From Trypanosoma brucei (Eukaryota): 64,000 bases of DNA. The stretch spans positions 1,344,001 through 1,408,000 of the forward strand of contig CP000068.1 of the NCBI GenBank assembly GCA_000002445.1. The letters run 5' to 3'. Positions within the stretch are counted from its first letter, which is position 1. Each line of letters opens with the position of its first letter. Positions 22,996 through 59,800 of this stretch are shown here, piece by piece. Under the pieces are notes generated by a model that was given only the letters and a program-made list of their open reading frames with translations, was not told the origin of the DNA and did no database searches. The position numbers were made by a program, and so were the translations under genes.

Positions 22996-24159
22996 ATTTT
23001 TTATTCGTAGTTTGTTTTATAATTTCAGTTGTGCCTTGGAGTTTCGTATGAGAATTTGTGCCCAGAGGGGCTGCTGATGAATGTTTTTTTTTTTAATTTG
23101 TTTTTGTCCTTTGCTCTGCTTAAAGGAACGGGGGTATTGATGACATTTTTGCTTTTTTTTCCAAAAAAAAGGCGTAGCGGGTGTAGCGAGGACGATTCGT
23201 TGTGAAATATATTGAGAGGTTGAACTGTTGTTGTTGGTATATTTTTTTTTGTGTGGTGCGTATGCAAATGCATGACTAACATTCTCATTGACGGCGGAGT
23301 CATAACGTTATCATTGACGGAAAAAGACAGTTTAGATTTTATTATATGATATTTGTGGCCGGGAATGCTTCCAAGCCACAACAGTACAGTTCTATCTTGA
23401 CCCCCACGGTGCAATAGTGGTGTACGGCGTTATTTAAATTTGGAATTTCAACCTTATCAAATTGTGTTTTTCTTGCAACTTAATAGTTTTGGTTGCGGAA
23501 ATACGAGCAAAATACTTGTCGGGAATAAATTTGATATCCACGAAAGAATTGTCATTAAAATTGAGCGGTTCCCTTTATGGAAGCGAGTGCAATGACCGGT
23601 GTCGGAGTGGCCATAGCAGTTGAGACTTTAATGTGAATGATTATGAGTCAACAATCTGTTCCACTAGACAGTTAATGGGCAGGCAGTAAAAGCGGACACA
23701 AAAATACAGTCAATTTGTAAAAACTCCACAGGGAGGACGGCAACGGCAGAGGGTTTGAGAGGAGCCAGAGAAATGATAACTTTTGCTGCCAATGAGATAA
23801 ACTCACCATAACCTCGTGTCAATGGTGCGTTAACAAAGGGATTCGCCCCAATATCTAATCAGTGAGTTAACTTAGGTATAATATGTATGTGCAAACGCAG
23901 CCTTTGATTTTTTTTTTATCGATGTCGTCGTGTTTCTCTTCCCCTCGAAAAAAAAAGAAGGAAAGCCGACGATACCCTTCGGGAGTTAAGAGGATGGTTT
24001 GGTGTCCCTTCTGTGCGTCCAACGAGGTGCGTGCACTTTCCACCGCTAAGTTCTGCGCCTCGCTCACAACCATAAAACAAGAGTCTTTTTTTTCTTTTTG
24101 AATAATGCGCATGCAAACGATCCCGCTTTTCCCCCCTTCCCGTTGGCATTTTCCCCCAT

Positions 24160-24160
<1 letters not shown>

Positions 24161-24195
<35 letters not shown>

Positions 24196-24196
24196 G
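24161..24196. repeat. (CA)n(TA)n microsatellite
   Basis: cacacatacatatatatatatatatatatatatg. Confidence 0.9.
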
Positions 24197-24246
24197 CATA
24201 GAGCAGCCGAAAAACAGCATTTAAGCCAAGGTGCCAACTTGAGCGA

Positions 24247-25434: not shown

Positions 25435-28400
25435 CATACGGTGGGGTTTTCTACACGCAGCGAGTAGTGTGAGTGTGTGGGGAGGGGTTAGTTGTTGTGA
25501 AGACTATGTGTGCAGCTGCCTCACCGACACATGCCCTTATTCCAACCGTTACTATGCGAATAATCACGAATTATCCCCTTTAATGGAGTAATTTTTTTTT
25601 CCCTCCGTTTCTTATCATTTGAATAACATAATGAACCAACAGGTCCATGAGGGAAATAATATGAGGAAATTATTAGGGTGGAGAATGGAGGCCCTATCTG
25701 TAGTGAATAAAAGTGTGTCGACAACCCCTTGTGGTGTTGTGCATTTTCGCCACTAATGGAATCACTTTGTAGATGCTCGAGGTACTGATTGTACATGTAT
25801 ATTTGCTGTTGTGCGGAGCTTTTGCCTCGGAAATTAAGAAAACAGAAATGCACTATCATCCCCGTCTCATGTGATAGATGCGGAGAATGCAGTTAAAAAA
25901 GCGTGTGTTTTATTCGCATTTAATAGGTGACACAAGAGAGAGCGGCACGAGGTAAGGAATGAGGTATCGTGAAATTGGTGTGGGGATTTTCCTGTTTGGG
26001 GCCACAATTAATGAAGGGATAAATGAAGGAAAAGGTACTGATAAATATTGACGAAAACGGTGTTTGCATCATCTTCGCTATTACCGAAAGGAAATGACTC
26101 CATGGGTGCATGGGCCAATTTTGAATATTATAATGATCTGTTGCCGCAACTTTCCCTCCATTGAACCAAACTCCACCTTTTCTTTTGCGTTCTCCCATTT
26201 TTTTGGGGGGGCCCACGAAAGGAACGGTCAAACCTTACTGAATGATTTGTTATGTTTCTTTCGCTCATATATGAAGTCAGTATAGCGGAGGGAGCTTTTT
26301 CTTTTTTTCGAAAAAAAAAGGTAAGCTTCACAGATATGCCAACGGCAACTCCACAGACCATTCTGGATGTAGAATGGACAAAGGCCTTGACATAAACAAA
26401 AGCTTTTGTATAAAGGAGGGAACAAACCCCATTTTCAATTGGAAATGGTTCGTCGCTCAGAAACTTCACGTCGCATGCAGACGGTATGTTGAAATTGGAA
26501 AATGGGGAGTTTCAAGTATTCTTTGAAAATAAGGAAGTGAACTTCATTTACCTACGGAATTCATTGGTGTCTTTCAATATGCCCCAAAGCGCTGTATTTT
26601 TTACGGTCTTTTGAAGAAGCCCGAGTGATGTTTTGAAATAAATGAACGGTGCTTGAGGAAAATAAATCAGTTCTATTCCAGAAGTATGAAATGATACGGC
26701 ACAAATGGGTGACAGGCGCTGGCGCATTCAAACTCAGTTGATAGGAATTAATGTTGAGAATTGTAGAATAAGGCAGGGGAATTTTTCAATTGAGAGAAGA
26801 GTTGGATCAGATGCATTCGCATATAGGTAGATTAGAAGAGATAAACGAATCATCAATACCTGAGGTGAATCACTGGAAAACGATTGCCCATTTACAAACG
26901 TTTTCCAATGATTCAGTTGGCTTCACAGAAGGAAGTATGTAAATGGGAGGAAGGATGTACAACCCGATGCTTTTTACCAACCGTATTTGAGAGAGAAAAA
27001 ATCCATTCTCCTGGTTAGTAGAGTTTGACGCTATAGCTGTGGAAAGTTAAATTATTATGGTTCTACATTTTATGCCAAGGAAAAGAAAATACTTCAGCAG
27101 CCGAAAGGTGGGATTTGGCCACGGAAACAATGAAACTTGAGTGCCGAGAGAGTATTGGAATCCATACCCATGAATATAAAAATCCGAAACCCTTAAGTGC
27201 GTGGGTTACGGAATAGAAAGAGGGCAATTGGATGTGGTTTTAGATCCCATGAAAACAATAAATAAAGAATCGTACTCTAAATCTCTCCAGCCAACAAAGA
27301 CACTGGTAAACGACACGATCATAATAAGAAAACTTCTGAGCCACGATCCGGTTACTGTGGCGTGGGCTTCAGGGACAAATCACATTGTAAAATGCATTTG
27401 GACGCAGCCAACATGAGAACATGTGGCTCCGATACCGAGAAGGTCCTGCGATTTCTCGAGAAAGCACAAGTTAGAGTTAGAATAGGTTAGGCCCTGTCTT
27501 CTCTTTATTGTGAGTATGCAATTGGCAAAAAACAACACAACGCAGCATACAGGAACTTTATTGTTAATGGTGGCACTCGGAAGAGAGTGGTTTGTAGCAA
27601 CCGGAATAAGAAAAGATAGTATGAAGTTGTAAGGTGGCTGTGGCGACTCAAATATCGACGAACCAGCGGGCACGAATAACTGATCGCTTCTGCAGGTGCC
27701 ACTCTACAACATCGCACTGTTCTACGGAGGAGCGAAAACGGGAACAACAACAACGAGACGCTTCTGGAAAATTTATCCATAAACAGGTCTCACTACAAAA
27801 GCGAATACAACTTATTATGGAGACAATAAAGGACGCATTCTGAATGGGATACTTCTACAAGGATATTCACGATTTTAGGGTTTGGTGGCAACCACATGGA
27901 GGAGAGGGTAAGAACCTGAGGTATTTTCTGTTATCGTGTTACTGCGGAAGGGATTCCGACGGCATATAATGGGTATGGGAAATGTTGCAAGCGCATGACT
28001 ACCACATCCCTCAGTGAGCTACCAGCATTAGTGAGCGAAAAGCAAAAATCCGCTTCAGGCATGCCACTTTGCGCTTGTACCTCACACTGTCATATGAAAA
28101 AATTGAGATGTAATACTATGAGGCGAAAAGAAAAGAGCAAGAGTCACAGCAAGGGTGCAAGGTAGAGCATGTCGTATTGTGTCTGGAACGCTCAGCTAAC
28201 TCATGGTATTTACAATAACAAATCACTTGGTCACATGAAGTCCGGAACACAACTGGTGGTGGCACCTAAACTACTGCCTGAGCGCTCTCCAAAGTCCTAC
28301 ACATATAATAATATCAGTTGACCGTGCACAAATTAGAAGAGAGATGCATATGATACTGCTAAATGCCACTATGGACCACATGAGGAGGTGAACACAGAGA

Positions 28401-30080
28401 GACAGAGAAGAGAAATCAGTGATATCTTTGCAGAATCATCAATTTGTACGATGTGCGGCATTGAGCCTAAAAGTGCTTGTGGAATTACTTCAGATTATAC
28501 CGTGGTGACACACGCTAGTCAAATTGAGGTACGATTCCCCTCAGATCGATGCTACTGAAAATCATGGAGGAGACGTAAATAAGTGTAGAATTTGTACATT
28601 TACTTTGTGCGAAAAAGGGTAGGCCCCGTAATACATAGTGGACCAAAACACTGCTCTGAATCGTTGCTTGTGCTCACAGCGCAACAAAATCAAATGGGTA
28701 TGTTGGTTCAATGCGAAGCACAGTAACGTGGAACTAACGGAAAAATATAGGTTGCAATAACGGCACCACTACATGCAGTTGCGAAGTGAAATAGAGGATC
28801 GGTGGTTCCAGGTCGAGTCCAGAAGAATTCCCAGCGATGCAACAGGAGCGGAGACAGGGCGGTACGGTGCCCCCGAGACCCATTAACAACTTTAAAGGAA
28901 TGTGTGATACCGGTGAAAAGACAAGTGATGGAATACGAAGCTGCGGAACAGCGACATGCTCAACTCTCCCAGGAAATGAGAGGAATACAGTGGCGTGTTC
29001 AATACAGCGTATACGCTGTAGCTTCTTAACAGAATTGTTGGGAGAGTTAACTTCATGCGTAGGGGCCCGATGTTGCGGGAAAAAACCTACCAAGAGCAGC
29101 ATCGGCACCGGGCATCGCCAAACAGTTGCAAGATACGAAGGGATATCGCTTGGGCAAACGCTGTTGGAAAAGAGTGGAGGATTTGGTAACCGCAGTGGTG
29201 ACAGAAATGTGCATTGACAGACGAGATATCGGTTCGCTTCGAGAAGATGGAGGTCATGGACCCTTTCATAAAATGTCAAAACTCGACATTATCGTTTTGG
29301 AGCTTCACACTTATGTGTTGAGCCTATGTTTAGTGTAGTCAGGATGTGACAGAAAGTGTTATGCGGCAGCAAACTTTTCCATGGGTAAAGGTGCCCCTAA
29401 TGGAATCCACGGGATCGAGGAAACTACTCACCCTGGTGAGTGGGAAGAGAATCCGTATAATAAGCTTATGTGCCAGGTGTTGAAGAATCTCGCTGTTGCT
29501 GTTGGCTTGGAATGAGTGACGTTAAAAGATTGTTTTCAGAAGATATTCTATTTCTTGTGTACGATCAAGAAAGCCATCTCTGGCACTGGTGGTTCCCTCT
29601 CGAGAGAAGAACATAAGCGCTTGAAGAGATGCAAGTGTATTACGTAGTGTCGAATTTCCGAATTTGGTTCTGATGAAGAAGCGTAGGGGCTCTCTTAACC
29701 AAAATCCACTGGAGCTGCAATCGCCCTGAGGTATGGGACTTCTCAGAAAACCTAGCAATGCTGTCAAAAAAATGTACGAATGGATCAGGGACTATCTGGG
29801 GCATCCCTTACTGTCAAGGATTATGCTCGGTGTGTGTGCATCAACGTGTTGATGGCGAACCTCCCTCAGTTTATGATACTGAAATTAAAAGGAAATGGGA
29901 TACATGTTCGGCAAGAGTTACAGTTCCTTTTAATTTGACGCACCGAGAAGAAAAGAGATTTACAAGCTAGAAGTGTTTCTTCGTGGGTTGCGCATGCTGT
30001 TTAATTGAAAATAAAGTTGTAGGTGTATGACTTTTTTTGTTGCGTGTGATTTTTCTTGAAAGGTAATTGAAGGAAGTGCA

Positions 30081-31214
30081 ATGATAATGTGTAAAAAGTT
30101 ACTGGGATTAATTGTGGGGGTTGTTTCGATAATGATGATAACACCCGTGTCCAGCGTAGAGGAAGAAATAGTTAATGAGGGTGAATTTAAGACATTATGT
30201 GATTTTGTCAGCTTAACAGAACGAATAAACGAGTCGCTAGAGTTGATAGAAAAGTCAGGAGTAAGCGTGTCTTTTCTACAAAAAAAAGTTACAGATGTAT
30301 TGTTTGGAACGGGAATTGGGGATGTTAGTAAAATGAAATGGCAACCTCACAGGGATATGGATTGTGGCACTAACAGTGGAAACCGAGCTTTCTGGGCAGG
30401 AGAGGCCCTCGTGAAAGATATTCTTTGTTTGTGCGAAAGGACAGATGGCTTGCACTCGCCACCCGAGCATCTTTGTTATCGTGGAAACAGCAAACGACAT
30501 AACGCTGACAACTGGAAAACCCCTACGAACCGCAAAAATACATGGAATGAACTACAAAATAAGTGCAAAAAGGGAGGTATCGAAGGCGCACCAACAAGGA
30601 CTGAGCTTCAAGATATGAGAAAACAACTCGAGGCAGGTATAAAGAAACGTAACGATTCGCATCACGGTGAGTACTGCATTTACGGAGGGGACAAAACTAA
30701 GACGCTAAGAATCTGCGATGGCCACCGAACAGAAACCAACGGCATTTGCGTAATGTATCCAAGGGGAACTGATGGGGCCAATGCAAGTGGTATTGAATGG
30801 CTTAATAAGCTCGAAAGACTGGTGAAAGAAGTCGAGAAAATAACAAAGGATGAAGGTACAAGCAGGCACACAAAACCAAGTAGTGACGGAGAGCCGAGCA
30901 TGGACGCAAAACCAAACTCAAACTTAAAGCCAAGCACGGAGGGAGAACTCACCATCCGAGCGATCAGACGAACCACGAGAAAAGGGAAACCCAGATGCGC
31001 AAACAACTACCACCACAGAGACAGAGACAGGTTTAACCACGGCAAGACCACCAGAAGAACAAAAGAGTTCAACCAAAATTATTTTACAGTCTATATGGGT
31101 ATTTTTATTTTGGCTGTTTGTATAAATTGGTCCATCATTCAATTGTTTTTATTTTTAAACCTTAATAAGGAAAGTAAGACAAACGCGGGCGCAGAAGACC
31201 AGCGAACAGGATGA
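30081..31214 (+). CDS. Cysteine-rich secreted/surface ESAG-like protein (377 aa); family unassigned
   Basis: Signal peptide (LLGLIVGVVSIMMITPVSS). There are more than 14 Cys in the ectodomain. A basic Lys/Arg-rich region and a C-terminal hydrophobic segment (YMGIFILAVCINWSIIQLFLFL) with a short polar tail are present. Confidence 0.6.
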   Translation: MIMCKKLLGLIVGVVSIMMITPVSSVEEEIVNEGEFKTLCDFVSLTERINESLELIEKSGVSVSFLQKKVTDVLFGTGIGDVSKMKWQPHRDMDCGTNSGNRAFWAGEALVKDILCLCERTDGLHSPPEHLCYRGNSKRHNADNWKTPTNRKNTWNELQNKCKKGGIEGAPTRTELQDMRKQLEAGIKKRNDSHHGEYCIYGGDKTKTLRICDGHRTETNGICVMYPRGTDGANASGIEWLNKLERLVKEVEKITKDEGTSRHTKPSSDGEPSMDAKPNSNLKPSTEGELTIRAIRRTTRKGKPRCANNYHHRDRDRFNHGKTTRRTKEFNQNYFTVYMGIFILAVCINWSIIQLFLFLNLNKESKTNAGAEDQRTG

Positions 31215-32147
31215 ATGGAACAAAAAGCTTATGTTTTTCACCCATTTGTGAGGTTTTCTAGTGAATAGTTTTGACACTGTGAAAAAGTATATAACCTGCC
31301 GGAACCTACGTGTAGCAATGCAAGTTGAGCAAAGCAAAAGTGAAGAGAAACGGGAGTAAAAAAAAAAAGGACTTATTCCTTTTACAGATAAAAAAATAAG
31401 TAAAGATATTGGCATTGTTATTATGGAATCTGGAAAGACAAATATAAAGGAACCGCCTTATGTACACAAACCTTAAGCCTTACGGGCGATTACAGTTAAC
31501 TCAGTTGAATTATGAGACCGAATGGGCGAGACCTAATTATGGAAACCTGGTTGGAGCGTTTAGGAAAGGGGGGGGGCAAAAAGAGAGTTATGTATGCAGA
31601 AAGCAATCAAAAATACGGTCAAATCCAATCAAGTTTGTGTGGCGACGAAGTCACCTACAAGTGGTGAAGGAAGCGCGAACAAAAGGGTTCACGAACTTCG
31701 ATCAAGTCTCTAAATAAAACACCAAAAGAACTAAATGTGTGGTTTTTCATTTAATGAGAGGAAAGTGAAGCCACCAAAAGACATATTGTCTGAGTTGACT
31801 TTATTTGTGTAACCCTAAAGTTTGAGGTACATGAATGTTGGGAATCGTACGATACAGCTGAGGGTCGATCAAAAGGGCTGTGGGTGAAGGAAACACCTGC
31901 ACGGTGGATTAAACATTAAGTTAAAAGGCGCTGAAGGCGGCAGAAGGGACCCTCATAGTCTTTGAAAGGCTTCTTCATGGGAGGAAACAATCAGAATGAA
32001 ATGTGTTAAGTTAGTTTATGCGTATTCGCTTTAATTCCAAATCAAATAATTGTTGTTTACAATCCAACATATATATATATAGGTCGATCCCCCTTTTGTC
32101 TCTTAGTGGTATTTTGTATGATTTGTTAGTTTACGTCGGGGGGAAAA

Positions 32148-33038
32148 ATGCACCGGCTTGCAACAGTTCCGTTTTTGACGCTGATATTGCTTGTAGTATG
32201 CGGTGGATCGAAGGCTTCTGTGCAAATTTCATCCGCTTCTCCGGGGTGCGACGGATATTGGACCTACACCGGTGTCAAGAAAACGTGCTGGACTCAGAAT
32301 ATGGGAACAACCAAACGGAGCGGTGTGAGTCCGAATCCCCCTTCGGTTTCGCGGCACCGTAGCCAGCAACCATCAAGTGGAGCCGGCGTCGGTGACCAGC
32401 AGCAAGAAACGCAGGGGAGTGTTTCATCGAGTTCAACCACTTCAAGAGGAACTAACCAACTGGGTTCGGACGGTGAAGACACCTTTCCGAAAGAGGATGT
32501 AAAACAAGTTTATGGGTCAGCCGGCACTCTGAGCATGAATCCGATCGCGCAGCCGTCCGGCAGTCCCAGAGAGCCGACAGATGCAACCCCGGTGGTGGAC
32601 CGCAAAGAAGAGGGACAAGTGGATCAGAGAGGGTTGGAATCTGGATCCGCAAAACAACAAAACACGACAAACGGCAACGGGGAAGAAGAAAATGGCGGGA
32701 AAGGGAGGGGTTCAGGAGATCATGCCACAGGTCACGATCGCGGGGGTATGGCGCAGGGCGTAGTTTCGATGTCTGGGCAAGGAAGTGCGCAGAGAGTGGA
32801 AACTGTAGCGGAACAACCAGTCAAGAACAAAGAAGATGATATTCCAGGAGAGAATGTTAAAGGGCCCGGCAGCAGCCATGTAGTCTCGACACCGGAGCGG
32901 CGAAATACACTGGAGACGGTAACAGATAATGGGGATCAGCAAAAATCTGGAGAAAGCAATGCTCAAGGGGAGAACAGCGGCTCGTGTAAAGGGCGTGCGG
33001 TAATACTCCCTGTAATATTAATCCTCATGTACTCTTAA
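32148..33038 (+). CDS. Acidic, low-complexity (Ser/Gly/Gln/Glu-rich) secreted protein with a GPI-signal-like C-terminus (296 aa)
   Basis: Signal peptide (VPFLTLILLVVCGGSKA). The mature region is compositionally biased and mucin-like. It ends in a hydrophobic tail (GRAVILPVILILMYS) typical of a GPI-addition signal. Confidence 0.5.
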   Translation: MHRLATVPFLTLILLVVCGGSKASVQISSASPGCDGYWTYTGVKKTCWTQNMGTTKRSGVSPNPPSVSRHRSQQPSSGAGVGDQQQETQGSVSSSSTTSRGTNQLGSDGEDTFPKEDVKQVYGSAGTLSMNPIAQPSGSPREPTDATPVVDRKEEGQVDQRGLESGSAKQQNTTNGNGEEENGGKGRGSGDHATGHDRGGMAQGVVSMSGQGSAQRVETVAEQPVKNKEDDIPGENVKGPGSSHVVSTPERRNTLETVTDNGDQQKSGESNAQGENSGSCKGRAVILPVILILMYS

Positions 33039-35254
33039 AAATCATTACCGCAATTCCATGGAATACTGTGAAAACGTCTATTGAGATTAACACCGCATGA
33101 TGAGGAGGAAGAGTTGAAAGTTGGAAACTAGCTTGCAACTGCTTTCAATGAAGATCATGTGGATGGAACGTTGTGGAGAGACAAGATAAGAGGATCGAAT
33201 AACACTAATGTAATCATAAGTAGCGTACATGAGTAAAACCAGTAACTGGAATGGAGGAAAAGCAGAATAAAGTTGTTAGCGCAAGAAGCAAAAAATGTTC
33301 ACATTAAGAACGACACGAGGCAAGGTGAGAAACAGGCGACAACCTTAACAATATTATTATTAATTAAACAAGGAAATTTAACTTCAAAAGTATTAAGGAC
33401 ATCGTAGCATTGAATTTTTTTTTTAGGGAACGTGATAAGAGCCACTTCACACCCTGGAGTAAACTTGATACCAGAGAGACTAACGAAATCGTAGCGTCAC
33501 GTTATGGGGGGGGGGGCACTGAATACTTTGACGGCCAAACCTGATATCATATCGGTAACCCTAAGATATGCTTAACTGATGCGAATAACAGAAAACATGC
33601 ATAAAGGATATGACCGACGAATAATCAGTGAACGAGCGAATTGCACAAAATAAGGATATGTGAAGACTTTAAATCAAACGGGAGAAGATAATGAAAGCTG
33701 GAAGATATGAAGGAGAGAATTAACAAACATAACTTATTTTTTAAAAAGGCGCCCTTACATATATTTTCTGTGTTTGTTTTTTGCCGCTTTATCGTCGCAG
33801 CACATTGAATTAAATCAGGAGCGCATCCTTGCTGGAAAAAGCATTAAAAGTTCGTATACTTTTAAGGGAATAATAATAATAAACAATGCCTTAACGAAGA
33901 AACTGGCAAATACGAAGCAAAGGCTCTTTATTTTGGTTGTTAACTTCATGATGTGCGCAATTCCACAGGCGTATGTTGTTATTGCGGATCTGGAAACTGA
34001 TATTTATCCTCTCTGTTTTATTTTTCCATATTGAGTTTTGAATTTTTTTAACCATTTATTGTCTTCATTATGCGCTGTTGTACTGTTTCGTAACTTTGGT
34101 AATGAGTTGAATATGAAGAGCAACTACATTACTTTAACCAAGTTCTCAATATGAGCAATCGGAGTTTTCCGTAAGGTAGCGTCGCACGACTCAGTGGCAT
34201 GTTGCGCCATTTTCTTCCGAGTCAGAGAACAACAACGAGACTGGTCGATGGAGTTTAAATAGATTGGATGACACATGATAGTGCTGTGCGCACAGGACAC
34301 AGGTGATTCAATAAAATTGAAGCTTATTGAGTGCGTGGGAACAGACAGAGAAGCATTAAGGACATTCCGCTTGGGATTGTTGCAGGCGAGGATGAGTTAC
34401 GGAACAGGGGCATGGTTGCTCTTAACCTTCGTAGGTGATTAGGAAACGACAAGTGTGAAGTCAACAAAACGGCTTCGTGGCAGAAGTGGTGACTCAAGAA
34501 AGCGGCAAAAATGCTGTGGAGACGCGGTTGAGCACATTTGCCACTATAGCTAACATGTGTGCAATAAAATGCTATCTGACGCTCAGTCAAAGGTCGGACA
34601 TCCAGTAGACCAACCGACAAATTGAACCTTCCAAGCGCATTTTACACATCACTGGTTGAAGAATTAGCGTACTTGGACCTCAAACATGGATGCGCGTTAC
34701 ATGTTGATGGCGCCAAAAAATCCACAGTCAGCGGCGGGGAACAAAGTAAGGACCTCTCTAACCGCGTTTGGCGGAAAACCAATACGTTGCACAAAGGGGA
34801 AAAGTACACAATGAGAACCGTTGCGAGCTACGGCGCTTTGTGCCGTGATATCCAAACCTAGTGTCAACAGGGTGGGTTTATCATAGTGACCTTTATTGTT
34901 GGTCACCCGCCTCCGCAGTTGCTGCCATGGTATCTGGCTCCACCCTTTTCCACTCTCGTTTCAACGGAACTTATGGAATCTGCGGTTCGCTGCTTCTCTG
35001 CACGTCTCACTGACACCTTGGTTAACACCAGTAATTCCATCCTTTAATAAATGCACATTTGAATATATACACATTTCCCCCTTTCATGATAGGCGTGCGG
35101 ACACTCCTCAGCGAGCGTTAGAACTTGACTTGTATGTTGGTGCATTATTCCTGGTTTGACCTGTGCCCATGAAATCATCTTTGCCTTGTATTTGATGGCT
35201 GTTGTCTACTGAGTAGGTGAGGCATGCGTGTCGGGTGCGTGTGCGAAACCAAAG

Positions 35255-35353
35255 CACAAGAAACATGCAGCACATTTAATGCCCCCAGTTTATGCATGCC
35301 CCATGCATGGCGGGGAGCCAGTGGCGTTAAATGTGCTGCATGTTTCTTGTGCT
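35255..35353. repeat. Perfect ~28-30 bp inverted repeat (hairpin/cruciform) with a ~47 bp, itself partly palindromic, spacer
   Basis: 'aaagcacaagaaacatgcagcacatttaa' ... 'ttaaatgtgctgcatgtttcttgtgcttt'. The spacer contains cccc...atgcatgccccatgcatgg...gggg. Confidence 0.85.
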
Positions 35354-36094
35354 TTCATTTGTGCGAGCATTTATTGATGAGAATGTGAACACTCAATAGC
35401 GTATTTGGCGGCAGTTGCGACGCCGGGTGGTCAAGCTGTCCAATGAGTAGGACGCTAACACAAGATGAATGAGAAGTCAATTAGAGACATTTGAGGCGGG
35501 TGTGTAAGGCTAACCCTAAGGGTGAGTAAATGAAAGTGGATGGAGGGAACGAGCAGATGGGTTGGAGGTGGTCGCGGGAGATGCTTCGAGCTGGAGACCT
35601 TCGTCACCTAGAGTGGGGACACGACCAGAAGCAGTTCGTCGTGAGCGACAAAAACTTTAGTTGTGTCGCAAATTCAGGAGATAGCTTACCCACTTTCATC
35701 TAGAATTGCAGAATAGTTGAAGGCGGTTGCAGGACCGTCACCGAAGGATACACCGAGGCAAGGCTGACATTTCTAACCCTTTGCCAACAGTGACAACAAA
35801 ACAAATATTGAAATGAAGCCCGTCGACCCGTAAGTGTTTCGGGGGATTTGGTGAAACAAGAGGGAACAACGTAGGAGATTTGGTGGATGATCAGGGGCAT
35901 CTAATTGAGGAAACAGGGCGCTTTTGTCGTTTGTATATCTCGCAGCAGTGTTTGTTACGTTATTTTGCGTAGTGCTTTGAGAGGTGTTTATCTTTTATTG
36001 TTATTATTATGACGCGCGTCTGGTTGCTACTAATTTTGGATGGTGACGTATGTTTTTCTGGGCTTGTATGTCTTTGCATAGGGAATCGTAGATA

Positions 36095-37069
36095 ATGAAG
36101 ATCACTATCGTGGAATTGGTCATTTTGTTATTTTTCGCAGTTAACATTGATGGGGAAGGAGGCGCTTGTATGTTGTTGGCAGATGTCGAGAATGATGTAA
36201 GTTTAGATGAATCTGTATGCTACCTCAGCTGTCTTTCGAGTGCTCTAAGCAAATTATACACTGATGGGGAGCGGAAAATGTTTGTGAATGAGGAGGTATA
36301 CGCAAATGCGTCTCGTATATTGGATGATATGGAATGGAAATCAGGTGAAAGCGCAACGTATTTGAGCGTAATTAGTGGTGTAATGGAAGGGAAACATGAT
36401 AAATTGGAAAAACTTATATCTTATGGAAGTGCAATGGGAGACCTTGTAGCTAAGGTTGGTGGATTATTTGTTGGGGTTAATGAAAGTGTAAGGGCAGTGA
36501 GGAATGCAGTACCCGACGCCCTCATAACAGCGAATAAATACTATACAGCCGCCGCCGAGGTTGAAAGGACTGTGTGGGACGATGTTAAAGGGATGGAGGC
36601 TCCGAGGATGTCGGCTGAATGCAGTGATCCAGTGTTCACAAATGTTGCAGGGTATAAGGTCATATGTCCAGATTACGTATGTCCATTCAACCATGGTGTG
36701 ACCGCAGCGGCCTTTCGCAAGTATAAAAATGAATGCCTTGAGATAACTGTGTATTACCCTAATAAGTGCAGAGCCCAAGGATTACCACGAGGCAAATTAT
36801 ACGGAAACGGTATTGTAAAGAATTTGACTACACTTTTGGAGTGGCGTGACGACCACAGTTATTTCCAACTGACACTGAAAATACGGCAGATGCTCGATCC
36901 TCTCATCGTACCTTTTGCTTCCGGGTTTCCACCATCTGTCCTCGTCGGTACACTGTCCAACATCACTTCTCTATATTCCCACTTTAACGAGGTCTACAGC
37001 AACTTCACTTCACTGCTCCTCGGCACCAATACCCCTGAAAATGTAAACAGGACTAATTTTCCGATCTAA
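36095..37069 (+). CDS. Secreted N-glycosylated ESAG-like glycoprotein (324 aa); possibly ESAG1-like
   Basis: Signal peptide (MKITIVELVILLFFAVNIDG), multiple NxS/T sequons and about 9 Cys. No TM is present. It is the last '+'-strand gene before the strand switch. Its length is in the range of ESAG1, but that assignment is not verified. Confidence 0.55.
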   Translation: MKITIVELVILLFFAVNIDGEGGACMLLADVENDVSLDESVCYLSCLSSALSKLYTDGERKMFVNEEVYANASRILDDMEWKSGESATYLSVISGVMEGKHDKLEKLISYGSAMGDLVAKVGGLFVGVNESVRAVRNAVPDALITANKYYTAAAEVERTVWDDVKGMEAPRMSAECSDPVFTNVAGYKVICPDYVCPFNHGVTAAAFRKYKNECLEITVYYPNKCRAQGLPRGKLYGNGIVKNLTTLLEWRDDHSYFQLTLKIRQMLDPLIVPFASGFPPSVLVGTLSNITSLYSHFNEVYSNFTSLLLGTNTPENVNRTNFPI

Positions 37070-38980
37070 CAAACACGTATACATTTCCTCCTTCCTATCA
37101 ATCTGTTTCTTTCGCATGTTTTTGTGCGAGTTCGCACACACCCATGTGCTCAATAATCGTCTTTTTGTATTGACATGTTTTGTTTCCATAGAAAATAGTC
37201 CAAACCTTCTGCGGTGGTAATGTTAAAATATCAGAAATTGTCCTATGTGTAGTTTGCGTGTACGAAGCAAAGTTCTTATTACGTACCTTTCAGAGCTTTT
37301 CTTTTGTAAGAGTTGCAAGAGTCTGTGCGATATGAAAGTGAAGCGCTGGTGGGGATAGTGACTCCACGGTTGCTGCGTTGCGACGTGGCCTCATGAGCCC
37401 ATAGCGTGGATGCCATTCGGCTGTGTGGTCGTTCGATGAGAAAGACAGCAATCATATGGTTGATACCTTCTTTTATTTTTCCGGCGCCATTCCTGGCTGT
37501 TTTCAAAGGATACTCATTGCAGACGCAGCGGCTTTTAGTGACGTTGTCAAAACACGTTGAAGACGGTGCGTTTGCGAGGTGACCTTAAGGGAGGGGGGGG
37601 GTAGAGAACGGTGGGTGTGGTGTGTGAATGGAACTTGGAGTGTCTTTTCAGTGAGGAAATAATAGCATGATGTGTAACGCCTAGTGCGTTGTGTGAAGCA
37701 AAATCCTTTTTAGGGGATAGATGGCCGTTGTCTTTTTCATGAAGTGGAGGTATTTTAGAATAGCGAAGGTTGTATGAAATTATACGTCACGTTTGTGCGT
37801 TTTTTCTTTCTTTTCGATTATATGAAAAAGGTGGTTATTACTTTCATTGCTATTGAGTGAGAATATTTTAGAGGCGATACCATTGGCTACAAGTAAGAGC
37901 GGTATCGAATATTGGAGGAGCAGCGCAGCGCAACGAGCAAATGTCGATTCTCACTGGGCCATTTGTGACGCGAGGTATCTAGGTGCATATGGAGAGGTGT
38001 GTGGCGTCGCACTCATCCTCGTAGCAACGCTGTGTCACCGCGCTGCACCTAAAGAGATCGTAGCAGTTGTTTTGGCAATCGAGGTGGTCTTTTGACACAA
38101 GTTGTGTGGCACTGTGGAAAATCCCTCGAAAATTATCATTTCTATCTCACCCCTTATTTGTGGAGGCGAAACAAACGTTGTACTCACCATCAATCGGTAT
38201 CTCTCCCCAATCAGCTGCACAATCAAAACTTTCATTAACGCGCTTCCAATGTTTTCTTGGTAGGGCGCCAATGTTACATGCCTTTTACAAAATTTCAATC
38301 TTGCTGTGAGTAGCGGCTCTTTTTGCTCCACTCACCGCTTTAATAGCTACCGCGTGAGGTTCGCCATAAAAAAAAAATCCTCGGAATGGCGCATCGTCGT
38401 TTGAATGTGCCCTAGTTGTAGAATCACTGCAACACACGGAAGCAGCAACAGCTCTTTAAGTTTGTTTCGTTGGGCTAAAAATCGGAACCTCTTAAAGGGG
38501 AGTTAAAGAAGACTGCAAAATTATAATTAACGGGGCGTTATTTTTCATTACGTTGATCTATTCTTAGGTCCACAGTAAGTCCAAACTCGTTTCAACTGTT
38601 GCAACACATCTAGTGTTTGTATGTCAATCAGCGGCCGTTAGCAGCACCCATTTTCTAAGCGAGTGAAATCGTGAATCTACCATGCCAAATGAGCGATACA
38701 CCTCCCCTTCCAAAGCAATATGAAAGGATCCTTGCTCCACACCGGTGTCTGTGTATTTTATTCGAGTCAAAGTAGCCTTTTTTCGCATCGTTATCTGTGT
38801 GGGACGTGTTATCAACGAATTGCCATCAAGGTTGGAGCGCACCATATTTGCTTCCAGAGGAATTATTGTATGTTATGTCCGAACTAGTTATGCGTGACCA
38901 GTTGCAAACGTTCAGCTTTTAGTCCTCGGTCTTCCTTAATTGCGAAAACAGTTTACTTGAGAGTGAAAGGCTTCTGCCTC

Positions 38981-40687
38981 TTCTTTTTTTTTTGAGCCAA
39001 ACGTAAAGAGCATAGTGGAGTTTACAATTTTCATTCAGAGGAGTGGGCAGCTTTTTGTGTAGTCTATTCTCCTTTATAGGGGTGTTCCTCTCGAATGAAG
39101 AAAGTACATGTTGGAAGAGAATGAGGGGATTCTCAATTTCTAGGAGGAATTGTGCAAGGTTCTTGGTGAACACTATCTTCTGCATATTTTCGCCTTCAAG
39201 CCCGAAGTAACTGCGGAGCACTTTAGGCTTGAGCGCACGAGTATGTGGGTGGGATTCCCTTCGCATTCGTTGGAGTGTGTATGTTTCCTTTCAACGCAGA
39301 TTTCATGTTTTTGATGGCGATGTATAGATGAACCTGATGTTGAGCGGGACGTCTTATTTCGGTTTACGAACGTGAAGTGTAGATGAAATCCTTTGACGTT
39401 GAAGCTCCGGAGCGGTGGTGGAGATTCTTTTGCTACGGAGAAGGGATGCTGTCTATGCATTCCCCCGAAGTGCTCCATCAGGCTGTCTTTTGATACATGC
39501 GTATGACGGCATTGCGTGCAACAGGTGTCATTTACACCTATAGTTACCGTGTTCCAAATGAGGGATACCTCTTGTTCTGTGATGGAACGGCTCCGTTTTG
39601 TACCAGCGTTACTATCCAGGGGATGGCCTCTGCGGTGTTGAATCTTGGTGTTTGGTGTTGTTCCCCCTTTTGATTGTGATACAAAGCTGCATTGCCTGCA
39701 TTGTAGCCGCTCAGATGTGCCTACTGGGTCGTTCAGTGGATGCCCTCTCGTTTCCGTCGCTCGGGAGCCCTTCGTTGGAATACTTGCATTCTCCTCGAGT
39801 TCTCGTTGCCTTCTTATTCCTCGCGACCCCGTTTGCGGTTGTACTTCGCAGTATTTCATCCCGTGACTTATCACTAGTCCATTTTCCGTGTGAAATATAT
39901 AGCTGCGAGGTCCATATATCGCTTCATTTTCTCCAGGGGCTGAACTGGTGGTGTTATCACTTTGTTCATTGGTGTTGGGTTGATGCGGTCGGTTTTCACT
40001 TTGTGTGCCTATCCGTTTCTCCACCACTGGAATGATGTGCTAAAGCTGACCTCTGCTCTTTATTCCATGACGTATTGTCGAGCCTTTCTGCTAAATCAAT
40101 TTGAACCCACGGATTCCTCACTGGAGTGCGTTTTTTATCATATTCAGTGTGGACTATGGTCCCGCCAGTGTGGGGTGGAAAGGGACTGTCGTTGGTCATG
40201 GAGTGTTTCTGTGGCCTGCGCAATGTTAGTACACCTGCACTCTTGGATTGAAAGCCACACTCTGCGCAAACCCATATGTGCTGTTTGATATTTTCATCTC
40301 TCCGCTTCTCCGACATTTCATCGTCTAACTTTCTCGTTTTGCCGTGAAGGCATCGAGTTTTGTGCCATGTGAGCCCTCCTTTGTTTCCATAGGATTTGTT
40401 ACAGACAATGAGCGCATACGACTTCGGTGGAGGGGGCAGGGGTTATAGGGTGAAATTTCAGGCACCACCCCAAGTTCTGCAGCATGTGCGGGTGATACTG
40501 CTGATGGCACGCTTGCCACGTGCCCAGGGACCGACAAATAAAAGACGCTGCTGATCCCTGTGCTGTATGACGCTGTAGCCGAAGCAAAGCATTGTTCCCC
40601 ATGAGAAGAACGCTGCTGGCTCTTGGCTTCCCCCGATGAGACGGGGTACTGGACTCTGACACCACCTTGATGGAGCCAGCATCACCA
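38981..40687 (-). mobile_element. Degenerate, internally deleted ingi/RIME-family non-LTR retroelement (DIRE-like) with a poly(A) tail
   Basis: Its 5' ~350 nt (40330-40687, '-' strand) are homologous to the ingi/RIME 5' fragment at 61163-61490, with a shared 'CCCTGG(C/T)G...CATCGGGGGAAGCCAAGAGCCAGCAGCGTTC' start. Internally it carries C2H2 zinc-finger ORFs. It ends in A11 (T11 on '+' at ~38981-38991). Confidence 0.6.
39173..40027 (-). CDS. Retroelement-derived C2H2 zinc-finger ORF (284 aa), likely a remnant of the ingi ORF C-terminus
   Basis: CRQCSFVSQSKGGTTPNTKIQHRRGH and CTQCRHTHVSKDSLMEHFGGMH are C2H2 fingers. A third finger (CAECGFQSKSAGVLTLRRPQKH) lies in an adjacent upstream frame. Confidence 0.45.
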   Translation of the reverse strand: MVEKRIGTQSENRPHQPNTNEQSDNTTSSAPGENEAIYGPRSYIFHTENGLVISHGMKYCEVQPQTGSRGIRRQRELEENASIPTKGSRATETRGHPLNDPVGTSERLQCRQCSFVSQSKGGTTPNTKIQHRRGHPLDSNAGTKRSRSITEQEVSLIWNTVTIGVNDTCCTQCRHTHVSKDSLMEHFGGMHRQHPFSVAKESPPPLRSFNVKGFHLHFTFVNRNKTSRSTSGSSIHRHQKHEICVERKHTHSNECEGNPTHILVRSSLKCSAVTSGLKAKICRR

Positions 40688-42094
40688 GGGTGTGCAGCAT
40701 GTTTCAACCGGCGCAATGCCTCATGGTAGGGTACACTGTGAATTTAGTTCGTATGAAACACTATGTGAGCTCTATCGGAATTTATTTTCCCGCAGTGTGC
40801 GCAGGGATGGGTCTGACACCATCTGCACCTGTTAGGAACTGTTTTGTTTATCCTCCGCAGCAACCATCCTTATGTATTCGATGTCCCAATGCGGAATTGG
40901 CGACTTCACCTGGTCTATCGGTTTAGTGGCAAATTTTCTTTAGTTGGTTGCCATTCACCGGTCATTTCCAACCTGTGTGTCTTCAGTTTCTCTCTGCTCG
41001 CCCTGAGGTGTCACTTTTCCAAGGCAGTGATGTCGTGTATCCACCCAACGTCTTGTTGAGTACGTTGGCAGATGCCCTCGCTTTTTTTTCCGTAAATTCA
41101 TTCTTTTCTACACTACAATGATCAAACACAAACTGAAGGCAGATGCTGGTGCTATGATATCCGATACCCAAGAGTACTATCCAAATCCGCCGCAAAATTC
41201 CTGCCTTTACCGCTGTTTCTCCCATTCGCAGTGCCTCGAAGAGCGACCGTCGGTCGGTAGAAAGAGACATTTTACACGGATGAGCTCCCTTCGGCCCTAA
41301 TATGTTTATCATTTTATGCAAAGCCTCGAACACTATGAAGTTAGTGGTAGCAGCCTCATTGTGGTGCCAGGGTTTATTACTCAGGGAGAATTAAAGTTTT
41401 TGTGGAAGCTAACTGTTACCACATGAACACCGGTATATCGGCAACAATGAATGATTACTGTGGTGTCATGGCGCGTGCACTTTTGAACGTTGAAGATATT
41501 TATGTATGTGCAGCGCAAATCAACCAGCAAATATGTGGCTACCTCGTGTTTTGGGGTTTAGTACCCTGTCCAAGGGGAACCCATCGAAGTCGCATACATG
41601 CCGCTAGCCGTACAGCTAGAGGATGAATTCACAGGGTGGGATGCCACGACAGCTATAGGAGGTGTAGTTCGCTGCAACGGAGACCGTCCCTTTAGACTAC
41701 TATGCGAGTCATGGCCACCATCCACTGGCGAAGTGGGTGTGTAATAATCTCCACCAAAGGAGGGTTTTAGTGAGTAGTGACTCGTTCTCCAAGGCTGAGT
41801 CCCACACTATCAGGTTATGTGACATGATGTGCATAAATGTATTTCCTGCCCTTTGATAGTGTATCGTGGTCACGTTGGTTGCTAATCCGAAGAATAAAGG
41901 CAAAAACATTTATATTTTTCAAAATTTGCCACAATCTTGAAATTTTCATCATAAAGCGTTATAATGTTTCAAATTACAGAAAATTTATCAAATTTTCTCA
42001 AAGTGGTAAATTTAATAAATTTCATTAAGTTGAGCGATAATCCTTGGTATTATAAAATTCTAGAATTATACCATACCCCCAAAGACAGCAGCCA

Positions 42095-43636
42095 TCAGAG
42101 CAAATTTTTGGTTACGAAAAAACTCGAAAAGCGGCACTCGGGATTGGGAAGTTTGCCTGTACCATCAACAAAATCAATCCATCCGCATACTGCTTTCTGA
42201 CCCGGTTTTACATCCTTGTTTTCCGCTTCACAGGCTTGCTGGGTTTGTTGTTTATTGCAATCTACCCCGGTACTTGTCTCTCCTGCTCCTGTTGCTGTGG
42301 TTCCTGTTCCTGGTTTAGGTTTGCATTCCTTTGTGGTGTCATCATAGTCGCAGTTGGTGGTTGGGCACTCTGCTGGGGTGGTGTTTTTCTTTGGGCATTT
42401 TATTTGCGTGTTTAGTGTTGGGTTTTCAGGCGCTGTGTTTCCCGTCTGGGTTGCTGGTGGGTTTGCTGCTGTCTCGTAAAGGCTGTGCATGGACTCGGCT
42501 AGTGATATTAGTTTAGTCCGCTGGTGTGTCAGCTTCCTGAGCAACTGCTTTCGCTCCACTAGTTTTTTCCGGGCTTCCATTAACCTGCCGTACCATTTTA
42601 TGGCTTGCCCTATCTTTGTCCTGGTGTTTTGCTTGAACGCTGCGGCGTAGTTTACGCAGCTGTGTTCCGAGGCCTGGTTACCTGTGCACTGAGTTGTTCC
42701 ATCCTGGCCTTTGCCGTATGCGAAGTTTCCTTTGTCGGTCGCGCTCCCTAAAGTATATCGGCCTAGTAATGTTGTGAATGCGTGTAGTTGGGTTGTTATC
42801 GTCGTCGGCGTAAGCGGCTGTGCTTCGGCGGTCTGTTCACAAATGGAGTGGAGTGTTTTGTAGATGGTTACCCCATTGCTAGCCGTGTTGTAGTCAGTGT
42901 TGTACGTGATGCCTTGTGTGTGGGCCGTGCAGACTGACAAAGTACTTGTTGCTGTTGAAGATCCGGTGCCGCAGAGACACGCCATGTCTGAAGCTAGCTA
43001 CTTTCCTGGCCCGTTTAGCGTTACACACGCTGCTGTGTATGTCGCCGTAAAGGCATCTGCTGGTATGTCCGTGAAAGCTCCTTTTCCGGCCCTAGCGCCG
43101 CCGAGCAAGGCGCTGCGAGTTGCTGCTCTGATGTTATCCGCGTTGGTGGAGAGTTCTTCTGTTGTTTTCTTGATCGCGTCTCTGATCTGGCCGGCTCTGT
43201 TGTGTGTCACGTCCAAGAGCTTGAGCGTTGCCACCGGTATATCTTTGTGTTTGACACGTCTGTATTTCTGCTTGGCTCCTGTGTCGGCAATGGCTACATT
43301 GTCAAATTTAGACCGCGTTTGCAGCCACTGATTGATCCTGTTCTGCTTCTGACTAGCGTCTTCTTCACCAGTGCCAGCATTTGGTTCGGGTCCGTTATCG
43401 TAATACGTGTCATTGGCGGTTAAGGTAAAGATTGTGTCGATTGTTGTTTCTGCTGCCTTTGCAGCTTCTGTTAAGTCGGGCTCATCATCGTCTTTGATTT
43501 CTTCCTTCTTTAGCATCACATCCATGTGACAGAATAGGTTGAACTCCGGGCCGTTGAGTGCCTCCCCTGCTGATTGGCCGAGTTTGGTTGTGCAGCACAT
43601 GGTTAGTGCTAGGAGAAGATAGAGCAATTTGAACAC
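42095..43636 (-). pseudogene. VSG: VSG (VSG-1 of array), ~513 codons with a single in-frame TAG
   Basis: N-terminal signal peptide and domain (MFKLLYLLLALTMCCTTKLGQ...), then C-terminal domains (…CDYDDTTKECKPKPG…CGW…). The N-terminal and C-terminal ORFs are in the same frame and are separated only by TAG at 42998-43000 (…NGPGK*LASDMACL…). Confidence 0.85.

Positions 43637-59339: not shown

Positions 59340-59800
<461 letters not shown>

What the first reader, a model, noticed from the sequence alone, without database searches (positions are those of the whole stretch)
35250..35360. Perfect ~28-30 bp inverted repeat with a palindromic loop in an intergenic region
aaagcacaagaaacatgcagcacatttaa / ttaaatgtgctgcatgtttcttgtgcttt flank a 47-bp spacer that itself contains cccc…atgcatgccccatgcatgg…gggg. 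An arm this long and perfect should extrude as a cruciform, or as a stable ~100-nt RNA hairpin if transcribed. Nothing else in the window looks like it. It could be a small structured RNA, a processing or recombination signal, or a replication-slippage artefact.
Basis: seen in the sequence. Interest (0 to 1): 0.55.

Follow-up and report, generated by a model that had tools for sequence, protein, structure and literature searches.

The report
Lone hairpin repeat upstream of trypanosome ESAG1
A real and statistically striking 115-bp hairpin-forming inverted repeat lies in non-coding DNA upstream of an ESAG1 gene at a Trypanosoma brucei subtelomere boundary, but it is single-copy, absent from the matching locus of the sister subspecies, and most likely a by-product of DNA replication or repair rather than a functional element.

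Summary
Perfect 29-nt arms (35251-35279 / 35327-35355) flank a 47-nt spacer that holds its own 7-bp mini-hairpin. The arms extend to 38 nt at 92% (35246-35360). The longest perfect arm in 30 shuffles of the window was 10-16 nt. The RNA hairpin folds at -74.6 kcal/mol (z = -10.7).

The window is T. brucei TREU927, near the chromosome 5 core/subtelomere boundary. The hairpin lies about 740 nt upstream of a chromosome-internal ESAG1, inside a 1.7-1.85-kb non-coding patch. That patch has no counterpart in the syntenic T. b. gambiense locus or in seven other ESAG1 loci. No second copy, Rfam family, coding remnant or plausible target was found. A symmetric 7-nt direct repeat (TGTGCGA) abuts the element (null 0.07-0.7%).

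Best reading: a lineage-specific inverted repeat made in one step by template switching or fold-back synthesis in recombination-prone DNA. If transcribed with the + strand polycistron, it would form an shRNA-like stem of about 33-36 bp that Dicer could cut, but nothing shows that it does anything.

Rivals: a functional hairpin small-RNA locus, a foldback/MITE-like insertion, a cis-acting RNA element, or an assembly artefact. Full cruciform extrusion is unlikely because the spacer is long and largely non-complementary.

Interest is low to moderate.

The parts
35240..35246 (.). Left copy of the 7-nt direct repeat TGTGCGA. It abuts the inverted repeat and shares 1 nt with the extended arm.
   Evidence: It sits at a symmetric 4-nt offset from the perfect core on both sides. 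Null frequency is 0.07% locally and 0.7% across the window.
35246..35283 (+). Left arm of the inverted repeat. The extended arm is 38 nt; the perfect 29-nt core is 35251-35279.
35284..35322 (+). Spacer of 39 nt, only partly self-complementary. It holds a mini-hairpin, ATGCATG-CCC-CATGCAT (35292-35308), CCC/GGG pairs, and an unpaired AGCCAGU (35316-35322) on the 3' side.
   Evidence: Sequence; folds.
35323..35360 (+). Right arm of the inverted repeat. The extended arm is 38 nt; the perfect 29-nt core is 35327-35355. The single inner mismatch (35280 T opposite 35326 G) is a G.U wobble in + strand RNA and an A/C mismatch in - strand RNA.
35360..35366 (.). Right copy of the 7-nt direct repeat TGTGCGA.
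34316..36047 (+). Private non-coding patch that contains the hairpin. It has no counterpart in the syntenic T. b. gambiense locus or in seven other ESAG1 loci. Candidate polypyrimidine/AG splice-acceptor signals lie at 34938-34962 (AG 35030) and 35072-35085 (AG 35091).
   Evidence: no homology; no coding signal; polypyrimidine/AG scan.
36095..37069 (+). Downstream gene: a chromosome-internal ESAG1 copy (XP_845131.1, T. b. brucei TREU927). It is the last + strand gene before the convergent strand switch.
   Evidence: Pfam ESAG1, 4.4e-105; 100% identical to the TREU927 protein.
32148..33038 (+). Upstream annotated gene: 'ESAG protein, putative' (XP_845130.1). The hairpin lies 2.2 kb beyond its stop codon.

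Best explanation
The element is a genuine, lineage-specific, single-copy quasi-palindrome of 115 bp in non-coding DNA at the core/subtelomere boundary of T. brucei TREU927 chromosome 5.

Origin (inferred). It most likely arose in one step. During replication or break repair, a nascent DNA strand briefly copied the complementary or its own strand. This is a template-switch or fold-back event, possibly nucleated by the small ATGCATG-CCC-CATGCAT palindrome. The result was a 29-38-nt reverse-complement copy about 40 nt from its source. The flanking 7-nt repeat TGTGCGA would be a microhomology or duplication footprint of the joining step.

Consequence (inferred). The element lies in a + strand polycistronic unit, so it is probably transcribed within a long 3' UTR or intergenic RNA. 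It would fold into a nearly continuous stem of about 33-36 bp. That is long enough, in principle, for a trypanosome Dicer to release one 23-26-nt duplex.

Nothing found here indicates that it has acquired a function. I regard it as raw material, not an evolved RNA gene or signal.
For: Shown:
- The repeat is real and far beyond chance.
- It is single-copy in the window and absent from 126 kb of related loci.
- The syntenic T. b. gambiense locus aligns on both sides (27189-34315 at 82.5%; 38377-41351 at 89-93%) but has unrelated DNA in place of 34316-36166.
- No protein within 90% identity of either neighbouring gene exists in the collection, so this stretch is private to TREU927 among annotated genomes.
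- There is no Rfam family, no coding remnant, and no target-like match above chance in the window or loci.
- Anatomy: perfect arms surround a largely non-complementary spacer.

From the literature:
- That anatomy is what single template-switch events are reported to produce. One example is a 28-base event that created a miRNA-type stem, and such events often start from unstructured sequence (PMC10710096).
- Two T. brucei small-RNA surveys mapped to this genome reported no miRNA-like hairpin loci (PMC3447711; PMC3683921).

Inferred:
- + strand transcription, from the gene orientation across 1-37 kb.
- The G.U wobble at 35280/35326 keeps the + strand stem continuous.
Against: - The ancestral state is not observable. 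The sister locus lacks the entire patch, not just one arm, so the template-switch origin is an inference from anatomy alone.
- A simple template switch does not predict a symmetric, abutting 7-nt direct repeat (null 0.07-0.7%). That feature fits an insertion with target-site duplication better.
- Perfect 29-nt arms beside imperfect outer and inner segments could instead reflect selection on the stem.
- Absence of function is argued from lack of evidence. No expression or small-RNA data could be examined for this site, and the published surveys used strains that may not carry this private patch.
Confidence: 0.55

Rival explanations
1. It is a functional hairpin-RNA or miRNA-like locus. The + strand transcript folds into a stem of about 36 bp. 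The nuclear Dicer TbDCL2 (or the cytoplasmic TbDCL1) cuts this into a discrete siRNA duplex that loads into TbAGO1 and acts on a target elsewhere in the genome.
For: - The stem length and stability suit a Dicer substrate.
- The + strand keeps a G.U pair where the - strand has a mismatch.
- T. brucei has an active endogenous RNAi pathway that processes inverted-repeat and convergent transcripts, mostly through DCL2 (PMC3447711; PMC4721609).
- The hairpin lies 2-4 kb upstream of a convergent strand switch. This may be the published siRNA locus CTU17 on chromosome 5, but that is unverified.
- Rfam gives weak matches to miRNA-precursor shape.
Against: - No target-like complementarity above chance exists in 64 kb plus 126 kb of related DNA. 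The best match is 14-15 nt, within the null range.
- The element is single-copy and not conserved in the syntenic sister locus.
- Two deep small-RNA studies found no miRNA-type loci.
- The known siRNA-producing inverted repeats of T. brucei have arms of 422-10,011 bp, not about 30 bp.
- The Rfam scores are far below threshold.
Confidence: 0.15
2. It is a foldback or MITE-like DNA insertion. A 113-bp element with terminal inverted repeats integrated at a staggered cut and duplicated the 7-bp target TGTGCGA.
For: - The geometry is that of [TSD][TIR...TIR][TSD]. The 7-nt direct repeat abuts both ends symmetrically, with a null of 0.07-0.7%.
- The element is palindromic along its length.
- It lies in a patch absent from the sister subspecies.
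Against: - There is only one copy in 190 kb of T. brucei-group subtelomeric DNA.
- Searches for ORF-level or DNA-level relatives found nothing.
- A curated survey of 57 trypanosomatid genomes found no class II transposons at all, so there is no known transposase partner (PMC12278014).
- TGTGCGA is over-represented locally, at 13 occurrences on the + strand of the window.
- The outermost 'TIR' bases are imperfect (AACC against AATG).
Confidence: 0.07
3. It is a cis-acting RNA structure in a long 3' UTR or intergenic transcript. It would influence processing (trans-splicing or polyadenylation choice), stability or translation of the neighbouring ESAG mRNAs, or pause RNA polymerase II near the end of the polycistronic unit.
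For: - It lies within the + strand transcription unit, between two ESAG genes.
- Candidate polypyrimidine/AG acceptor signals lie 155-216 nt upstream.
- The structure is robust in a longer context.
- From established knowledge, gene expression in trypanosomes is controlled mainly after transcription.
Against: - It lies about 740 nt from the ESAG1 ATG.
- All eight other ESAG1 loci become homologous to this one only within about 10-120 nt of the ATG (window 36048-36212). That suggests the ESAG1 processing signals lie close to the gene, not at the hairpin.
- No other ESAG1 locus has such a hairpin.
- A perfect stem of about 30 bp is atypical for protein-binding regulatory elements and more likely to trigger RNAi.
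Confidence: 0.1
4. It is an assembly or cloning artefact, such as a chimeric or fold-back read, and is not present in the organism.
For: Palindromes can be generated or rearranged during cloning and amplification. The element could not be checked in an independent assembly of the same strain, because TREU927 is not in the contig index.
Against: - Fold-back artefacts give perfect, spacer-less palindromes that break collinearity. This element has an asymmetric 39-47-nt spacer, three arm mismatches and unique, collinear flanks that run into annotated genes on both sides.
- At 29-38 bp per arm with a long spacer, it is well within what is stably propagated in E. coli clones (established knowledge).
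Confidence: 0.03

Closest known systems
Hairpins created by replication template-switch mutations (Loytynoja/Monttinen model; de novo miRNA-type stems)
   Same: A perfect reverse-complement copy of about 30 nt lies a few tens of nt from its source and creates a stem-loop in one event. It is lineage-specific, sits in already transcribed non-coding DNA, and shows a few later mismatches (PMC10710096; anatomy).
   Different: No ancestral sequence is available to reconstruct the switch points. The symmetric 7-nt flanking direct repeat is not a standard feature. Those cases were described in mammals, not in kinetoplastids.
siRNA-producing long inverted repeats of T. brucei (IR1-IR7, Tschudi et al. 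2012)
   Same: Near-identical inverted arms in the T. brucei nuclear genome with the potential to make fold-back dsRNA for the Dicer/AGO1 pathway.
   Different: Those arms are 422-10,011 bp and were found with tools tuned for large repeats. This element has 29-38-bp arms, enough for at most one siRNA duplex. Small-RNA output here is unknown.
Animal or plant miRNA precursors / Drosophila hpRNA loci
   Same: The overall shape: a stem of about 35 bp with an apical loop, inside a longer Pol II transcript. Rfam gives weak shape matches to mir-15 and MIR528.
   Different: The scores (23 bits) are far below the gathering thresholds (57-62). The stem is perfect, not bulged. T. brucei has no Drosha/DGCR8-type pathway, and no miRNAs have been detected.
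MITE / foldback class II transposable elements
   Same: Terminal inverted repeats, small size (about 113 bp) and an abutting short direct repeat that resembles a target-site duplication.
   Different: It is single-copy. No class II elements or transposases are known in any trypanosomatid. The whole element is quasi-palindromic rather than TIRs around an unrelated core.

Membership tests
Rfam RNA families (miRNA precursors, snoRNAs and others) | Covariance-model score at or above the family's gathering threshold | tested here: not met
   There were 0 hits at gathering score in the whole window. At E<=10, mir-15 scored 23.2 bits against 57.3 and MIR528 scored 23.1 against 62.
MITE / foldback DNA transposon | Terminal inverted repeats | tested here: met
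   Arms are 38 nt at 92%, with a perfect 29-nt core. The outermost 5 nt are imperfect.
MITE / foldback DNA transposon | Target-site duplication directly flanking the element | tested here: inconclusive
   A 7-nt TGTGCGA abuts both ends symmetrically, with a null of 0.07-0.7%. This is a single instance in a TG-rich context, and no empty site is available.
MITE / foldback DNA transposon | Multiple dispersed copies in the genome | tested here: not met
   There is one copy in the 64-kb window and none in 126 kb of related loci. No ORF-level relatives were found. The complete T. brucei genome could not be searched with these tools.
MITE / foldback DNA transposon | A related autonomous element or transposase in the lineage | not testable with these tools
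   From the literature only: no class II elements were found in 57 trypanosomatid genomes (PMC12278014).
T. brucei siRNA-generating inverted repeats (Tschudi IR class) | Long (>=0.4 kb), near-identical inverted arms | tested here: not met
   Arms here are 29-38 nt, against 422-10,011 bp for that class.
T. brucei siRNA-generating inverted repeats (Tschudi IR class) | AGO1-bound, Dicer-dependent 22-26-nt RNAs map to the repeat | not testable with these tools
   No read data are accessible. The published tables list no locus identifiable as this one.
Template-switch-derived hairpin | A perfect reverse-complement copy close to its source, with a spacer that need not be complementary | tested here: met
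   The published example has a similar length of 28 nt.
Template-switch-derived hairpin | The ancestral or outgroup sequence carries only one arm and is explained by a four-point switch | tested here: inconclusive
   The only syntenic outgroup (T. b. gambiense, L001) lacks the whole 1.85-kb patch, so the pre-event state cannot be reconstructed.
Cruciform-extruding palindrome | Short or absent spacer (about 10 nt or less), so that extrusion can nucleate at the centre and branch-migrate | tested here: not met
   The spacer is 39-47 nt. Only a 7-bp central mini-hairpin is complementary, and it is separated from the arms by non-complementary stretches. The threshold itself comes from established knowledge.

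The most novel reading that the evidence does not exclude
The element is the relic of a foldback or MITE-like class II insertion: a 113-bp unit with terminal inverted repeats and a 7-bp target-site duplication, TGTGCGA. Trypanosomatids are currently held to be entirely devoid of DNA transposons, so this would imply past or horizontally acquired cut-and-paste activity in T. brucei subtelomeres.
Probability: 0.05. Interest if true: 0.7.

Novelty: new member of a known kind. Interest (0 to 1): 0.3.

Why it matters
If it is only a mutational by-product, it matters little. It would be a clean example, in a kinetoplastid, of how one replication or repair error can create a ready-made shRNA-like hairpin inside a transcribed region. 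That is of some interest because T. brucei has an active RNAi pathway but no known miRNAs. If the hairpin were processed into a discrete AGO1-bound small RNA, it would be the first hairpin-derived, miRNA-like locus in a trypanosome. It would also be a natural case of a new RNAi trigger arising next to ESAG and VSG genes involved in antigenic variation. If other copies with their own target-site duplications exist, the view that trypanosomatids lack DNA transposons would be overturned. All three outcomes can be settled cheaply with public data, namely genome BLAST and small-RNA read mapping.

Tried and rejected
- **Known RNA family.** Rfam found nothing at gathering score, and only generic hairpin-shape hits below threshold at permissive E-values. 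There are no tRNAs or tmRNA.
- **Second copies or targets in the window.** None within 3 mismatches. The longest exact shared word is 11 nt. The best near-match (14/15 nt at 40691-40705) and a 14-nt match in L004 do not extend and fall within the null score range.
- **Independent assemblies through exact-product look-up.** ORFs across the hairpin and the neighbouring ESAG1 are not on record, because TREU927 is not in that index.
- **Homologues of the hairpin-spanning ORF and of a 1,721-aa concatenation of all reading frames across 34250-36110.** None found.
- **Eight ESAG1 loci from T. b. gambiense, T. equiperdum OVI and T. b. equiperdum IVM-t1.** None has the hairpin or the surrounding patch.
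- **Whole-collection DNA scans (metagenomes; prokaryotic genomes) for the arm core.** 0 hits, as expected for a trypanosome sequence.
- **Coding remnant in the patch (retroposon or VSG fragment).** No Pfam signal.
- **Link to the published chromosome 5 siRNA 'pseudogene' Tb927.5.290.** Rejected. Accession numbering puts that gene near the other end of the chromosome, and the syntenic gambiense locus is at the right end of chromosome 5.
- **Literature search for the arm sequence and for the neighbouring protein accessions.** Nothing found.
- **Bacterial-type promoter/terminator scan.** Uninformative for a eukaryote.
- **Labelling caution.** In some searches, the hit 307-1498 belongs to L002, and the hit 10808-15016 ~ 36899-41044 belongs to L005. 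One search has the correct labels.
Full report
**1. What the window is**

ORFs longer than 150 aa run on the + strand from 1 to about 37 kb and on the - strand from about 39 to 64 kb, with large gaps between them.

- Pfam identifies a receptor-type adenylate cyclase (ESAG4-like, 3737-7468), an amidohydrolase, a VSG_B-domain ESAG2-like gene (30081-31214) and ESAG1 (36095-37069, E = 4e-105).
- On the - strand there is a series of VSG genes and fragments, some preceded by 70-bp-type repeats.
- The ESAG1 product is 100% identical to XP_845131.1 of Trypanosoma brucei brucei TREU927, on a 1,608,198-bp chromosome.
- The syntenic locus in T. b. gambiense DAL972 lies at 1.31-1.33 Mb of the 1.386-Mb record FN554968.1.

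The window is therefore the boundary between the transcribed core and the subtelomeric VSG array, apparently at the right end of chromosome 5. The finding lies in the last part of a + strand polycistronic unit, 2-4 kb before a convergent strand switch.

**2. The observation**

It is accurate.

- The arms AAAGCACAAGAAACATGCAGCACATTTAA (35251-35279) and their exact reverse complement (35327-35355) flank a 47-nt spacer.
- With three mismatches the arms extend to 38 nt (35246-35283 / 35323-35360).
- The spacer contains ATGCATG-CCC-CATGCAT, a 7-bp mini-hairpin, plus CCC/GGG pairs. AGCCAGU on the 3' side is unpaired.
- The longest perfect hairpin-type arm in 30 dinucleotide-preserving shuffles of the window was 10-16 nt, against 29 observed.
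- Folding energies are -74.6 kcal/mol (+ strand RNA, z = -10.7), -68.2 (- strand RNA, z = -8.1) and -44.9 (ssDNA, z = -9.2). The hairpin survives in a 601-nt context.
- It is the only non-low-complexity hairpin repeat of 18 nt or more in the window and in 126 kb of related subtelomeric DNA.

One new observation: a 7-nt direct repeat, TGTGCGA, abuts the element on both sides (35240-35246 and 35360-35366), at a symmetric 4-nt offset from the perfect cores. The null frequency of such a configuration is 0.07% locally and 0.7% across the window.

**3. Context and comparative evidence**

The neighbouring annotated proteins have consecutive accessions (XP_845130, an 'ESAG protein, putative', at 32148-33038; XP_845131, ESAG1), so nothing protein-coding is annotated between them. 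Reading frames in the interval have no Pfam match and no homologue among 5.8 billion proteins.

The gambiense locus (L001) aligns with the window on both sides: 27189-34315 at 82.5%, ESAG1 and its downstream region (36167-38124) at only 70%, and 38377-41351 at 89-93%. Window 34316-36166 has no counterpart and is replaced by 2.9 kb of unrelated DNA.

Seven further ESAG1 loci from T. equiperdum and T. b. equiperdum become homologous to the window only from 36048-36212 onward, that is, from about 50 nt upstream of the ATG to about 120 nt inside the gene. One of them, L005, shares the downstream region at 83%. None contains the hairpin or the patch.

Neither neighbouring protein has a relative within 90% identity in the collection. 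The hairpin therefore lies in a 1.7-1.85-kb non-coding patch private to TREU927 among accessible genomes, in a zone where ESAG1 cassettes have evidently been exchanged by recombination. It is about 930 nt from the left edge of that patch and about 690 nt from the right edge, so it is not at a breakpoint.

A true conservation or covariation test is impossible with the data reachable here.

**4. What it is not**

- It matches no Rfam family. The only hits are generic precursor-shape matches at 23 bits against thresholds of 57-62.
- It has no second copy and no target-like complementarity above chance.
- It is not one of the long siRNA-producing inverted repeats of T. brucei, whose arms are 422-10,011 bp.
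- It is unrelated to the chromosome 5 siRNA 'pseudogene' Tb927.5.290, which by accession numbering lies near the other end of the chromosome.
- Full cruciform extrusion from duplex DNA is unlikely, because the 39-47-nt spacer is mostly non-complementary (plus established knowledge of cruciform kinetics).

**5. Most likely explanation**

The anatomy is perfect arms of about 30 nt, a spacer that is not their complement, and a few mismatches at the arm ends. It sits in transcribed non-coding DNA and is lineage-specific. Single template-switch events during DNA synthesis are reported to generate exactly this. One 28-base event created a miRNA-type stem, and such events often start from unstructured sequence (PMC10710096).

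Subtelomeric boundaries in T. brucei are recombination-prone, and the patch itself differs between subspecies. I therefore favour a one-step mutational origin by template switching or fold-back synthesis, perhaps nucleated by the central mini-palindrome. The TGTGCGA repeat would be a joining footprint.

Shown: the structure, its uniqueness, and its absence elsewhere. Inferred: the mechanism of origin.

As for consequence, the element is in a + strand transcription unit. Candidate polypyrimidine/AG acceptor signals lie 155-216 nt upstream (AG at 35030 and 35091). It is thus probably part of a long 3' UTR or an intergenic RNA and would form a stem of about 33-36 bp. The one inner mismatch is a G.U wobble on the + strand and an A/C mismatch on the - strand, a weak hint only.

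Such a stem could yield one 23-26-nt Dicer product. T. brucei processes endogenous dsRNA mainly through nuclear DCL2. However, two small-RNA surveys reported no miRNA-like loci, and no target is evident. I put 0.55 on 'mutational by-product without evolved function'.

**6. Rivals**

- (a) Functional hairpin-RNA or miRNA-like locus: 0.15.
- (b) Cis-acting RNA structure affecting neighbouring ESAG mRNAs or Pol II progress: 0.10.
- (c) Foldback/MITE-like insertion with a 7-bp target-site duplication: 0.07. The geometry fits well, but the element is single-copy, and a curated survey of 57 trypanosomatid genomes found no class II elements (PMC12278014).
- (d) Assembly artefact: 0.03. The asymmetric spacer, arm mismatches and collinear unique flanks argue against it.

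An unverified lead: the last convergent-transcription siRNA locus listed for chromosome 5 (CTU17, 1,377,100-1,385,900; 583 reads, 1.3% remaining in dcl2-/-) may be the strand switch at about 37-39 kb in this window. If so, the hairpin would lie at the edge of a known siRNA zone. The window's chromosomal coordinates are needed to check this.

**7. Verdict**

The element is a new member of a known kind: a lineage-specific hairpin-forming inverted repeat of mutational origin. Interest is low to moderate (0.3). The feature is genuinely unusual and cheap to resolve with public genomes and small-RNA data, but nothing found here points to a conserved or novel mechanism.

Noticed in passing
window 34316-36166 against L001 7125-10069; ESAG1 loci L002-L008: The DNA upstream of this ESAG1 is private to TREU927, and the gambiense syntenic locus has its own unrelated 2.9 kb. 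All eight other ESAG1 loci become homologous to the window only from 36048-36212, which is within about 50 nt upstream of the ATG to about 120 nt inside the gene. The ESAG1 body is only 70% identical between the syntenic loci, while the flanks are 82-93%. This suggests ESAG1 cassettes are swapped by recombination with a boundary close to the start codon.
   Followed up: partly
window about 37,070-39,170 (between the ESAG1 stop and the first - strand ORF at 39173-40027): A convergent strand-switch region at the core/subtelomere boundary. It may correspond to the published DCL2-dependent siRNA locus Tb927_05_v4_CTU17 (chromosome 5, 1,377,100-1,385,900). This could not be verified without the window's chromosomal coordinates.
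   Followed up: partly
window 12566-15028 and 19639-22095: A tandem duplication, about 7 kb apart, of a gene of about 820 aa with no clear Pfam domain. The only signal is a sub-threshold NHL-repeat hit.
   Followed up: no
window 54849-56261 and 59500-59739: An array of 70-bp-type repeats (74-nt period, TAT/TAC-rich) and a (TAT)~80 run in the AT-rich gaps between - strand VSG genes, as expected upstream of VSG cassettes. GC drops to 27-33% in these gaps.
   Followed up: no
window 42095-43636 (- strand): Two adjacent ORFs carry a VSG_B N-terminal domain (42998-43636) and a VSG C-terminal domain (42095-42985). This looks like one VSG split by a frameshift or stop, that is, a pseudogene.
   Followed up: no
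window 34335-34396; L006 18515-18576: A 62-nt stretch at the left edge of the private patch is 85% identical to a site in an unrelated T. b. equiperdum ESAG1 locus. It is the only part of the patch with any match elsewhere and could be a small dispersed repeat or a recombination junction.
   Followed up: no
window 33506-33516 and 24157-24199: A G11 homopolymer run in the ESAG 3' region, and a (CA)n(TA)n microsatellite. Both are slippage-prone simple sequences.
   Followed up: no
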